A stretch of 40,979 nt of DNA, taken from a virus (lineage: Duplodnaviria; Heunggongvirae; Uroviricota; Caudoviricetes). The stretch lies in IMG/VR virus record IMGVR_UViG_2703718797_000012. The stretch is one strand, 5' to 3'. Each line of letters opens with the position of its first letter. The stretch's first letter is position 1. The position numbers are program-made. This document shows positions 6,001-9,000 of the stretch, in pieces.

Positions 6001-9000
6001 CGATATCTTCAGGGCTGAATGGCTCATCGAATTTGTTCAAATCCATAATTCACCTCAGAATGGACACGGCCCAAGGAAATAACGCTGATTTAATACTTCG
6101 ACTCGGGACAAATTAAGGCATACCCGCATTCCTTCGCGGTCGCCATTATGGCGATACCAGAGAGCTTTCTGCGTGTACATGCGCCTCTGTAACTTGCTCT
6201 CCTTCACTGTGGTTGCAAGTGACATGAATATCTCCTTCGTTGCCGATTAATTCTTTCATCTGACGAATGAATTCTTCGTCTGACCAGTTATCTGTAAAAC
6301 TCATGGACGGCCTTGTTGTTTCAAAATATCCCAAAGCTTTTCGAGCAAACTTTTCATTCTTGGTTGTTTAAAGTCTGCTCCGGTTAAAATGTTTTTTCGT
6401 GAATGCTGCACCGATAAAATTGGGTTGAAAGGGCGAACCGATGCCGCCCCTGCAATAGCGAACTGTTGCATAGGATGCTCCTTCTGTTTGATTGCATAAC
6501 GAAAACGCCTCAAGTGAAGCGTTATTGGTATGCATATAAAAAGGCCCTCACACTGGAGGGCAAAGAAGATTTCCAATAATCAGAACAAGTCGGCTCCTGT
6601 TTAGTTACGAGCGACATTGCTCCGTGTATTCACTCGTTGGAATGAATACACAGTGCTTATTCGTACTAATAAAATACCCAATTTTCTGTTTCTTGGTTGT
6701 GTCCAAAGTTATATTCAATATCTGGTGTTGATGTATCAATATTTTTCATCCCATCAACAAGAGTTGATACAACAGCCAAATCTTGTTTTATTCTCATTAA
6801 ATGGTATTTCTTCCGGCGCAATAAACTTTCAATAGCAAGTTTCTTCGTTGGGAATGCAAAAGATCTTTCTGCATTTTTTGCTACTTTCTTAATTGCATAT
6901 CTATTTCTCCTTTGTTTCCATTCCTGTAACCACTGATTTGGTGCTGGTTTAAAATTAACAATCCAATGCGCAGGAACCAACCATGCATAATGCTCTGTCT
7001 GATGAAAAGCTATATATTGAAGTGCGAATATTTTTATCCCATCTTCTTCAACTGTCGCCTGGAATCTCCAGAAAACAGGCATTCCATCATGTTCAGTTTC
7101 TGATTCAGAAAAAGGTACGCTCCATGATTTTGTCATATCTCACCTCAAATAAGTGGTTTGCTGCCTAATTTCATTTTCTGGCGACCAACACAAGTCACAC
7201 CCATTTCACTGCGTGGCTTGCGGTAGTAAATACGATTCTGTTTATGATAGACTTCTTCTGCCTTCTTGCAGCGAAGGCTTCCGAGTGATGCTGCTTTGTC
7301 TGCTCTGACGCAACCAGAGAGCTTTAGCGCAATTTTTCGCGCCAGTCGCTGCTCTTGCATTGCCTGTTCACGTTGAGCCTGTCTGCGTGCTCTGCGGCGA
7401 TTTCTGGCGTTATCGTCAGCCAGATATGTAATGACTACTGTCATGTTGACCTCCGATGAAACAACTTTGGAATTGATAGTGATTGCAAAGTGGTTTCTGG
7501 CCCCTCGAATTGAGGGGCAGAAAGAGCATCTCGCCAACTAATAGGTCGATGCTCGGATCGAGAGATTTAATTAACCTCGGTTTTGAAGTTATGCATTCAC
7601 ATAAATCCTCCTGTTGCATGTGCAGCATTGGCTGTGTTTGGCGGCTGCATTTCGCCCATGGAATTGACTTTGGCGGTGACGCGCCGGGTGCTTATCTTCC
7701 GGTTGCCGTCGTGCAGCTGCACTTCACGTCACCCCAAAGCCAACTACTCTTTGGTTCCCGCATTTCGGCGGGACAACCCCATCAATGTTAAAGAGCCTGC
7801 CAATCTGTTCCGTTTGGCTTCCAGCGTCCTGCTGATGGCTTAAATTTAAGATCTCTTTAATTAATGGTCAAGAGTATTTTTGAAGAAAACTTAAATTTTC
7901 TTTCGTAACTTAAGTTTGGCTTTGATTTTTAAAGGAAATAAAAAAAGGGGCGAATGCCCCCTTATGGAAGGTTTGCTAGTTTTGCATCGACAACTACGCC
8001 GATGATTTTGCAGTTTCCGTTGATCTCGATCATCGGATATTGTGGGTTAAGTGGTTTTAGAAACTTCCTGCCTGCATCAATAACTAACTTCTTGAAAGTT
8101 GCCTCGTTTTCTCCTTCGAGCTTTGCAACTACCAGTTTCCCGTTACGCGGCTCTACTTCAGGATCGACGAGTATTATCATTCCTTCAGGGATACTGAGAC
8201 CGGCCGGAGCCGTCATTGAGTCTCCCTTCACGTCCAACCAAAACGAATCTTCTGAACAGTCTACGGTTGTATCGTACCAGTTATCTATTGCACGCTTATG
8301 ATATGGTTCTACAGCTTCCATCCAGCATCCTGCGCTCACCCAGCTAATCAGAGGGTATGACCCTCTTGGATCATGCCTACTGTGATAGGCAATGTTTGAA
8401 AGACTTTCCTCTCCTTTCATCAGATAGTCAGGGGAACACTTCAACGCATTAGCCAGGGCGAGAAGATTCTCTCCATTTGGCTCTGTCTCAGAGCGTTCCC
8501 ACTGAGATATGGCAACATTAGACACGCCGACCATCTTTCCAAGTGCGGCCTGCCTGATCTTGAGTTCTTTTCTCCGAGCGCGAATGCGCTCTCCCATCAA
8601 TTGAGTTTTCATAGTTAAGACATCTTAAATAAACTTGACTTAAGATTCCTTTAGTGGATAATTTAAGTGTTCTTTAATTTCGGAGCGAGTCTATGTACAA
8701 GAAAGATGTTATCGACCACTTCGGAACCCAGCGTGCTGTAGCTAAAGCGTTAGGCATTAGCGACGCAGCAGTCTCTCAGTGGAAGGAAGTCATCCCAGAG
8801 AAAGACGCCTATCGACTGGAAGTCGTTACAGCTGGCGCCCTGAAGTATCAAGAAAGCGCTTACCGCAAAGCGGCATAAGCAAATTGCTCTTTAACAGTCA
8901 TGGTCCTCATTCCCGCCGAAATGCGGGAATACAACGCGCATAAGTTGATGCGCATAACTTCTTATTTGTTAAGGAAATACTTACATATGGAACTTACAAG

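What the first reader, a model, noticed from the sequence alone, without database searches (positions are those of the whole stretch)
6666..7136. AT-rich gene of unknown function immediately downstream of N
A 156-aa ORF with markedly lower GC than its neighbours occupies the first position after N in the pL operon, where lambdoid phages carry host-takeover or exclusion genes (ral, sieB, ea10-type). It has no TM segments and no family I recognise. An inverted repeat (GTGTATTCA-n9-TGAATACAC, about 6640..6665) follows its stop.
Basis: partly seen in the sequence, partly recalled or inferred. Interest (0 to 1): 0.5.

Follow-up and report, generated by a model that had tools for sequence, protein, structure and literature searches.

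The report
HK97 gp45-like early phage gene
The AT-rich gene after N is real, but it is a 99% copy of a long-catalogued and never characterised phage gene (HK97 gp45, also in Shiga-toxin phage 933W), and the hairpin after its stop codon belongs to a conserved small-RNA/terminator element of phage lambda rather than to the gene.

The parts
7843..7871 (-). pL-like sigma-70 promoter (TTGACC-17-TAAATT) between the cI-like repressor gene and N
   Evidence: Consensus scan, 9 of 12 matches. The position matches lambda pL relative to cI and N. This is an inference, not a demonstration.
7500..7528 (-). nutL-like site: boxA TGCTCTTTC (7528-7520) and boxB hairpin GCCCCTC-AATTC-GAGGGGC (7518-7500)
   Evidence: Read directly from the sequence. 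Compared with the lambda boxA consensus from memory. Not tested further.
7145..7447 (-). Antiterminator N, lambda-type C-terminus (100 aa)
   Evidence: PHROG 271 'anti-termination protein N-like', E 3.3e-36. Pfam N_peptide E 6e-4, below the gathering cutoff. Near-identical to the 99-aa N of IME10.
6666..7136 (-). The finding: 156-aa ORF, orthologue of HK97 gp45 / 933W NP_049479 (PHROG 1636, function unknown)
   Evidence: dN/dS is 0.12-0.19. AF2 model pLDDT 95.5. No PDB analogue. pI 9.1, with 15 K/R in residues 75-120.
6619..6656 (-). 14-bp stem / 4-nt loop hairpin.
   Evidence: Invariant in lambda, HK106, HK629, HK97 and 933W. Its 5' arm is cut off by the IS903 insertion in HK022.
6538..6625 (-). 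Homologue of the lambda PreS/LPR1 Hfq-dependent sRNA, ending at the tL2a intrinsic terminator (stem 6544-6561, then CTTTTT)
   Evidence: Window 6535-6656 is 97.5% identical to lambda 33,924-34,045, between ral and ea10. LPR1 lies between ea10 and ral, is about 88 nt and has its 3' end at tL2a (bioRxiv 10.1101/2024.10.31.621285; PMC12197685). The terminator was found by the scan. The 5' end is placed only by counting 88 nt back from the T tract.
6301..6471 (-). cIII-like gene, the next coding gene downstream
   Evidence: PHROG 550, E 4e-22, on residues 36-91 of the 6301..6576 ORF.

Best explanation
The ORF is a genuine protein-coding gene and the orthologue of HK97 gp45 and of the ORF that follows N in Shiga-toxin phage 933W. 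It is a dispensable, horizontally exchanged cassette.

In this P22-like phage it is joined to the last codons of a lambda-type N gene with only 8 nt between them. It is followed by the conserved lambdoid PreS/LPR1-tL2a element. It is therefore transcribed from pL on the same terminator-free stretch as N, repressed in the lysogen and made at the very start of lytic growth or induction (inferred).

The product is a soluble 18.6-kDa protein. The model shows an acidic N-terminal beta-sheet domain, a very basic strand-turn-strand-long-helix centre (15 K/R in residues 75-120) and an ordered acidic, aromatic C-terminal tail.

The most likely function, which is inferred and not shown, is as a non-enzymatic binding protein. 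It would bind nucleic acid or an acidic host protein to modify the host early in infection, either for host takeover or to neutralise a host defence.
For: Identity:
- PHROG 1636 matches full length, E 2.8e-111.
- 98.7% identity to HK97 gp45 and 99.4% to the 933W ORF after N.
- Present in 83 phage records and 598 of 5,426 E. coli genomes.

A real gene:
- Homologues at 55-84% identity occur in other Enterobacterales, with saturated dS and dN/dS of 0.12-0.19 where measurable.
- The exhaustive HMM search recovered about 80 full-length distant relatives of 135-155 aa, plus fragments and two repeat-protein false positives.
- AF2 gives pLDDT 95.5 and pTM 0.82.

Early expression:
- The order is cI-like repressor, pL-like promoter, nutL, N, then the ORF.
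- No terminator-like site was found between 7843 and 6561.

Accessory and mobile:
- The slot content differs between phages that have the same flanks.
- The cassette carries a fossil 3' end of a lambda-type N into HK97 and 933W.
- Relatives always sit among small early-operon accessory genes. Neighbours include RecT/YqaJ/Erf, a DNA methylase, an Acb2/Tad1-hairpin protein, and xis-int.

A binder, not an enzyme:
- The positions conserved across the whole family are G33, T47, K87 and A101, plus a basic consensus motif (K..K...RFAF.TK..A...L..RK).
- No conserved catalytic-type set of residues is present.
- The central segment has pI 11.4.

The fold also occurs in lytic phages, so the role is not specific to lysogeny.
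Against: - There is no direct functional evidence of any kind.
- No characterised homologue was found by sequence or by fold.
- No literature on the protein was found.
- The anti-defence reading rests only on neighbourhood and sporadic distribution. There is no consistent partner gene.
- Nucleic-acid binding is inferred from charge alone.
- Rho-dependent termination between N and the ORF cannot be excluded, so the expression timing is an inference.
Confidence: 0.35

Rival explanations
1. It is a phage-directed nucleic-acid-binding factor. It would act as an accessory regulator or as a helper of DNA transactions (recombination, replication or the lysis-lysogeny decision) on the phage's own DNA or RNA, rather than on the host.
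For: - The centre is very basic, and the consensus strand-turn-strand-helix motif (RFAF.TK..A) resembles by eye the beta3-helix junction of AP2 / integrase arm-type DNA-binding domains.
- In Vibrio phage PvVp04 the relative sits directly after a cro-like HTH gene, where cII would be, and before Rha.
- In NX263 and L016 it heads an operon that contains ParB-like DNA-binding proteins.
- Many relatives lie beside RecT/Erf/YqaJ recombination genes.
Against: - hhalign against the lambda Int arm-binding domain and an AP2 domain is not significant: probability below 1%.
- The gene is absent from close relatives with identical regulatory and recombination modules, such as IME10. No core process depends on it.
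- The palindrome next to it has no second copy in the window and belongs to the PreS element.
Confidence: 0.25
2. It is a prophage-expressed moron that protects the lysogen through superinfection exclusion or abortive infection, as sieB or rex do.
For: - Its GC differs sharply from its neighbours.
- The same slot in lambda-like phages holds sieB (from memory), and ral lies in the same interval.
- It is found in 11% of E. coli genomes, with up to 4 copies per genome.
Against: - No promoter-like site was found on its strand upstream. Only 8 nt separate it from the N stop codon.
- No membrane segment.
- No significant PADLOC defence-family match: the only hit is Cas1_II at E 0.018.
- It was not among the Phi24B CDS that the CMAT clones recovered from lysogen cultures in PMC3342100 (Table 1 seen; the 2D-PAGE table was not checked). 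This is a weak negative.
- Fold relatives occur in strictly lytic phages.
Confidence: 0.08
3. The protein is incidental, and the AT-rich segment matters mainly as RNA or DNA. It could be a 5' precursor or stabiliser for the downstream PreS-like sRNA, or an H-NS-bound silencing patch.
For: - The ORF abuts the PreS/LPR1 homologue. The stop codon lies 9 nt before the hairpin, and the two are co-transcribed.
- AT-rich DNA is a typical H-NS target (general knowledge).
Against: - Strong purifying selection acts at the protein level.
- Protein homologues exist at 20-25% identity in unrelated phages that lack the PreS element.
- The predicted fold is of high confidence.
- PreS occurs in 327 phage records, but only 83 hold the ORF.
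Confidence: 0.04

Closest known systems
HK97 gp45 (NP_037731) / 933W NP_049479 / PHROG 1636
   Same: 98.7-99.4% amino-acid identity over all 156 residues. Same position directly after N. Same downstream hairpin and terminator.
   Different: In this window the gene is fused 8 nt behind an intact lambda-type N. In HK97 and 933W, which have a different N type, the last ~51 nt of a lambda-type N survive as an untranslated spacer of about 58 nt. One residue differs from the common allele (S10 instead of P10). The family has no known function.
Lambda PreS/LPR1 sRNA with the tL2a terminator (for the inverted repeat and the 3' flank only)
   Same: 97.5% identity to lambda 33,924-34,045. GC-rich stem plus T tract. 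The published LPR1 is about 88 nt, ends at tL2a and lies between ral and ea10.
   Different: Here the element follows the gp45-like gene instead of ral, and precedes cIII instead of ea10. Expression, Hfq binding and dnaN targeting were not tested here. Whether the 14-bp hairpin is inside the sRNA or just 5' of it is not settled.
Lambda Ral, SieB and Ea10, the accessory genes of the interval between N and cIII
   Same: Same variable interval of the pL operon. Dispensable and exchanged as cassettes.
   Different: No sequence or PHROG relationship. The gene coexists with ral in phi367. It has no membrane segment, unlike SieB.
SH3-like / Tudor-type small beta-barrels (PWWP, MBT, chromo, KOW, PipX)
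   Different: All scores are below any accepted threshold. There is no significant match, so this is a lead only.

Membership tests
PHROG 1636 / HK97 gp45 family | Full-length significant match to the family profile | tested here: met
   E 2.8e-111, residues 1-156 on profile positions 1-156 of 156.
PHROG 1636 / HK97 gp45 family | Near-identity to the named member and shared synteny after N | tested here: met
   98.7% to HK97 gp45 and 99.4% to the 933W ORF, both directly after N.
Lambda PreS/LPR1 sRNA - tL2a element (3' flank) | At least 92% identity to lambda LPR1, the criterion used in the preprint's conservation survey | tested here: met
   97.5% over 122 nt to lambda 33,924-34,045. Criterion quoted.
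Lambda PreS/LPR1 sRNA - tL2a element (3' flank) | GC-rich stem followed by a poly-U tail at the 3' end | tested here: met
   GCCCTC-CAGTGT-GAGGGC followed by CTTTTT at 6561-6538.
Lambda PreS/LPR1 sRNA - tL2a element (3' flank) | Lytic-cycle expression, Hfq dependence and activation of dnaN | not testable with these tools
   Needs Northern blots, RIL-seq or reporter assays.
Ral (restriction alleviation) | Sequence membership in the Ral family | tested here: not met
   No ral PHROG or Pfam hit. A separate ral gene coexists with the homologue in phi367.
SieB-type exclusion protein / moron | Membrane segment and own promoter active in the lysogen | tested here: not met
   Maximum hydropathy 0.56. 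No promoter-like site on its strand, and only 8 nt from the N stop codon. Actual expression was not tested.
Known anti-phage defence proteins (PADLOC-DB) | Significant match to a defence-system model | tested here: not met
   The only hit is Cas1_II at E 0.018, 12 bits, over 45 residues.
AP2 / integrase arm-type DNA-binding domain | Profile or fold similarity to the three-strand-plus-helix domain | tested here: not met

The most novel reading that the evidence does not exclude
The gene is the E. coli representative of a phage-wide family, found in both temperate and lytic phages. The family has a confidently predicted fold with no solved analogue. It would be produced among the first proteins of infection, and would act as a previously undescribed inhibitor of a host immune system or hijacker of a host nucleic-acid machine. 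Because it is carried by HK97, 933W and 11% of complete E. coli genomes, such a function would be directly testable in standard model phages.
Probability: 0.3. Interest if true: 0.6.

Novelty: already known. Interest (0 to 1): 0.33.

Why it matters
The sequence is not new. It has been in HK97 and 933W since about 1999-2000 and is annotated 'hypothetical protein' wherever an annotation exists. Two things are still worth knowing.

First, this is one of the commonest uncharacterised early genes of E. coli lambdoid prophages, including Shiga-toxin phages. It now has a high-confidence structural model that matches nothing solved. That makes it a well-defined and tractable target for counter-defence or host-takeover screens in HK97.

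Second, the flank clarifies the architecture of the region. The variable cassette slot after N is bounded on one side by the 3' end of N. On the other side it is bounded by the conserved PreS/LPR1-tL2a sRNA element. This explains how such cassettes are swapped between phages.

Tried and rejected
Searches that found no characterised relative:
- Pfam, NCBIfam and PADLOC on the protein, and PDB sequence search with both the protein and the 75-sequence profile.
- Pfam on all 75 family members at E up to 10. No family recurs.
- The first AF2 model, built from close homologues only, was poor (pLDDT 60) and was discarded.
- AFDB50 was not available.
- BFVD returned only uncharacterised phage proteins.

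Leads followed and dropped:
- Longer hits that might have been domain fusions (P0051, P0074) are repeat-protein false positives.
- The AP2 / integrase-arm idea was tested by hhalign and rejected as unsupported.
- Occurrence in plasmid leading regions was checked. There are only 11 hits, all non-mobilizable and at least 98% identical to the phage gene.
- The search for related loci with the wide alignment failed for lack of conserved stretches.
- Rfam has no family for the 3' flank.
- The EHEC prophage sRNAs (AgvB, AsxR, HnrS) lie in the late region, not here.

Literature:
- Searches for HK97 gp45, protein accession numbers, pL-operon anti-defence and related terms found nothing on the protein.

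The hairpin:
- It is not conserved next to distant homologues.
- Its half-site has no other copy in the window.
- It was therefore rejected both as the gene's own terminator and as an operator.

Full report
**1. Observation**

An ORF of 156 codons lies at 6666..7136 on the minus strand. It has an ATG start preceded by GAGGTGA. Its GC is 0.350 and its GC3 0.255. GC3 of N, erf, ssb and cI is 0.43-0.47. Only 1.1% of all 471-nt windows of the 40,979-nt sequence are as AT-rich (profile).

The gene upstream (7145..7447) is an N-type antiterminator: PHROG 271 with E 3e-36, and a lambda-like C-terminus. Its stop codon is 8 nt from the ORF's start. Further upstream are a boxA/boxB-like nutL site (7528-7500, read), a pL-like promoter (7871-7843) and a cI-like repressor gene (7962..8612).

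Downstream, in order, are cIII, two small ORFs of PHROGs 2123 and 1723 (labelled 'recombinase'; one weakly Arf-like), Erf, SSB, a DEDD-type exonuclease and Abc2. The window is an E. coli P22-like phage. The best overall matches are Lederbergvirus phages IME10 and HZ41, and a sar RNA and an Ant gene are present.

The protein has no hydrophobic segment: the maximum 19-residue hydropathy is 0.56.

The 9-nt arms are at 6643-6651 and 6624-6632 with a 10-nt spacer. With G-U pairs it extends to a 14-bp stem with a 4-nt loop at 6619-6656. The fold z-score is -4.0 and 0 of 200 shuffles fold as well.

**2. What the gene is**

It matches PHROG 1636 (function unknown) over its full length, with E 2.8e-111. 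By tblastn it is 98.7% identical to HK97 gp45. It is 99.4% identical to the ORF after N in 933W, Phi24B, BP-4795, Min27 and many other Stx phages. In all, 83 phage records hold it.

The DNA is present in 598 of 5,426 complete E. coli genomes, with up to four copies per genome. It is annotated as hypothetical protein in all listed records. Pfam, NCBIfam, PADLOC and PDB sequence searches are empty or insignificant.

Homologues at 55-84% identity occur in prophages of Pectobacterium, Brenneria, Cronobacter, Rosenbergiella and Serratia, and in a Salmonella phage. dS is saturated in most pairs. Where it can be measured, dN/dS is 0.12-0.19. It is therefore a protein under purifying selection.

**3. 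The wider family and the fold**

An exhaustive profile search of 1.84 billion representatives found 88 hits. Most are 135-155-aa proteins at about 20-25% identity.

Four positions are conserved across the whole family: G33, T47, K87 and A101. In addition there is a basic consensus motif, K..K...RFAF.TK..A...L..RK..QL.HL. None of the 75 aligned members hits any Pfam family recurrently. All fall in PHROGs of unknown function. Two longer hits are repeat-protein false positives.

With this alignment AlphaFold2 gave a confident model, with pLDDT 95.5 and pTM 0.82. Its elements are:
- three long antiparallel strands (residues 19-30, 33-46, 50-55);
- two short helices;
- a short basic strand (83-86);
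- a 33-residue helix (98-130);
- an ordered C-terminal tail.

An earlier model built from close homologues only was poor (pLDDT 60).

In BFVD there are 12 significant matches, all uncharacterised phage proteins. Among those with names are proteins from Erwinia phiEa2809, Achromobacter phiAxp-3, Delftia RG-2014, Rhizobium RHph_N38, Tenacibaculum Gundel_1 and Sinorhizobium ort11. A Cellulophaga phi17:2 protein follows at E 1.0e-3.

The protein has pI 9.1. Residues 1-60 are acidic (pI 5.1). Residues 75-120 hold 15 K/R (pI 11.4). The tail is acidic (pI 4.2).

**4. Cassette anatomy and the slot**

An alignment with HK97, 933W and vB_EcoP-611R6 shows near-identity. It starts inside the last ~51 nt of the window's N gene, the part that encodes ...TCVGRQKMKLGSKPLI*. 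It continues through the ORF to the terminator at 6561-6544.

HK97 and 933W have a different N type whose stop codon coincides with the start of this shared block. In them, therefore, the 3' end of a lambda-type N survives as an untranslated spacer. The arrangement in the window, with an intact lambda-type N fused to the cassette, looks like the original one.

The slot is variable:
- IME10 has the same N and the same arf/erf flanks, but carries a 62-aa ORF plus the 322-aa Orf53.
- CUS-3 has N, ral, three ORFs and then cIII.
- HK106 has an 83-aa ORF.
- phi367 has ral and the gp45-like gene together.

Relatives are not tied to N:
- L017 has the gene after N.
- The Pectobacterium and Brenneria prophages have it just before xis-int.
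- NX263 and L016 have it as the first gene of an early operon.
- A Vibrio phage has it after a cro-like HTH gene and before Rha.
- Others have it among small early genes next to RecT/YqaJ, a DNA methylase and an Acb2/Tad1-hairpin protein.

Low GC holds for the close clade only (0.35-0.39 against 0.44-0.47). It does not hold for distant relatives.

**5. The 3' flank is the lambda PreS/LPR1-tL2a element**

The 131 nt after the stop codon match 327 phage records. That is four times as many as hold the ORF. Lambda 33,924-34,045 is 97.5% identical and lies between ral and ea10. An alignment of lambda, HK106, HK629, HK97, 933W and the window is almost invariant. In HK022 an IS903 copy ends inside the hairpin's 5' arm.

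A 2024 preprint describes LPR1, later named PreS. [quoted passage not shown] It is about 88 nt long, is processed to about 68 nt, and its 3' end is the tL2a terminator. It is expressed from 10 minutes of the lytic cycle and activates dnaN translation. It is conserved at 92% identity or more in many lambdoid phages (bioRxiv 10.1101/2024.10.31.621285; review PMC12197685).

Counting 88 nt back from the T tract gives 6625. That point lies inside the 3' arm of the hairpin. The hairpin therefore abuts or overlaps the sRNA's 5' end. It is not the gene's own terminator. It has no T tract of its own, and it is not conserved next to distant homologues. Rfam has no model for the element.

**6. Mechanism**

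Shown:
- It is a real, conserved, soluble protein.
- It belongs to a mobile accessory cassette.
- It lies in the pL operon directly after N.
- No intrinsic-terminator-like site was found between the pL-like promoter and 6561.

Inferred:
- It is co-transcribed with N, repressed in the lysogen, and made at the onset of lytic growth.
- It is a binding protein rather than an enzyme, because no catalytic-type residues are conserved across the family.
- The basic centre binds nucleic acid or an acidic partner.

Best guess: an early host-takeover or counter-defence factor, at confidence about 0.35.

Main rival: a phage-directed DNA- or RNA-binding accessory regulator, at 0.25.

A lysogen-expressed exclusion moron is unlikely. 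There is no promoter, no membrane segment and no significant PADLOC match, and the fold is present in lytic phages. The gene was also not among the Phi24B CDS that the CMAT clones recovered from lysogen cultures in PMC3342100 (Table 1 seen; the 2D-PAGE table was not checked).

**7. Comparison and novelty**

As an object, the gene is already known. It is a 99% copy of HK97 gp45, and the flank is the published PreS element. What is unknown is the function of the whole family, which has a confidently predicted fold with no solved analogue. I found no literature on the protein.

**8. Verdict**

The gene is ordinary and catalogued, its function is open, and it is a good experimental target. Interest is 0.33. 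Two corrections apply: the gene does belong to a recognisable family (though an uncharacterised one), and the inverted repeat is misplaced and belongs to a different, known element.

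Noticed in passing
window 6538-6625 (-), with terminator stem 6544-6561: Homologue of the lambda PreS/LPR1 Hfq-dependent sRNA and tL2a terminator. It is 97.5% identical to lambda 33,924-34,045 and present in 327 phage records. Rfam has no model for it.
   Followed up: yes
L001 (HK97) about 2687-2744 and L003 (933W) about 2443-2500; window 7145-7198: HK97 and 933W keep the last ~51 nt of a lambda-type N gene as an untranslated spacer between their own, different N gene and gp45. This fossil marks the recombination joint that moved the cassette.
   Followed up: partly
L017 about 3460-3500 and 3975-4025: In this metagenomic lambdoid phage the 72%-identical homologue is flanked on both sides by a direct repeat (CGTGGACGCAGCAGA...TAAGAGGTGAGTATG). 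The repeat includes the ribosome-binding site and the start codon of the next gene. It looks like a cassette boundary sequence.
   Followed up: no
L024 (HK022) 144-1200: An IS903 copy in HK022 ends exactly inside the 5' arm of the conserved hairpin. It removes whatever lay in the cassette slot and leaves the rest of the PreS-like element intact.
   Followed up: no
L006 (IME10) 4540-5508 and 5696-5884: The closest overall relative of the window fills the same slot with a 62-aa acidic ORF and Orf53. Orf53 is a 322-aa, extremely charged, E/A/K/R-rich protein that is probably a coiled coil. Both are uncharacterised.
   Followed up: no
window 32367-33928: A low-GC island between the ejection-protein genes and the immI region holds three minus-strand ORFs of 109, 139 and 199 aa. 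They fall in PHROGs 5962, 1651 and 18235, all of unknown function. This is the position where P22 carries sieA (position recalled from memory).
   Followed up: partly
window 38497-39906: This is the most AT-rich stretch of the window (minimum GC 0.31 near 38,700), between the 981-aa ORF at 35756-38701 (probable tailspike by position, not checked) and the integrase. It holds a 111-aa ORF that matches only the C-terminal third of PHROG 30105, so it may be a truncated gene.
   Followed up: no
window 15316-15471 (+): Two adjacent tRNA genes are present: tRNA-Asn(GTT) and tRNA-Thr(TGT).
   Followed up: no
window 34574-34641 (-) and 34576-35577 (+): A sar antisense RNA (Rfam, 90 bits) overlaps the start of an Ant antirepressor gene. 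This is a P22-type immI region.
   Followed up: no
window 6504-6523 (-): A second terminator-like hairpin (AACGCTTCACTTGAGGCGTT followed by TTCGTT) lies about 20 nt after the tL2a homologue and just upstream of cIII.
   Followed up: no
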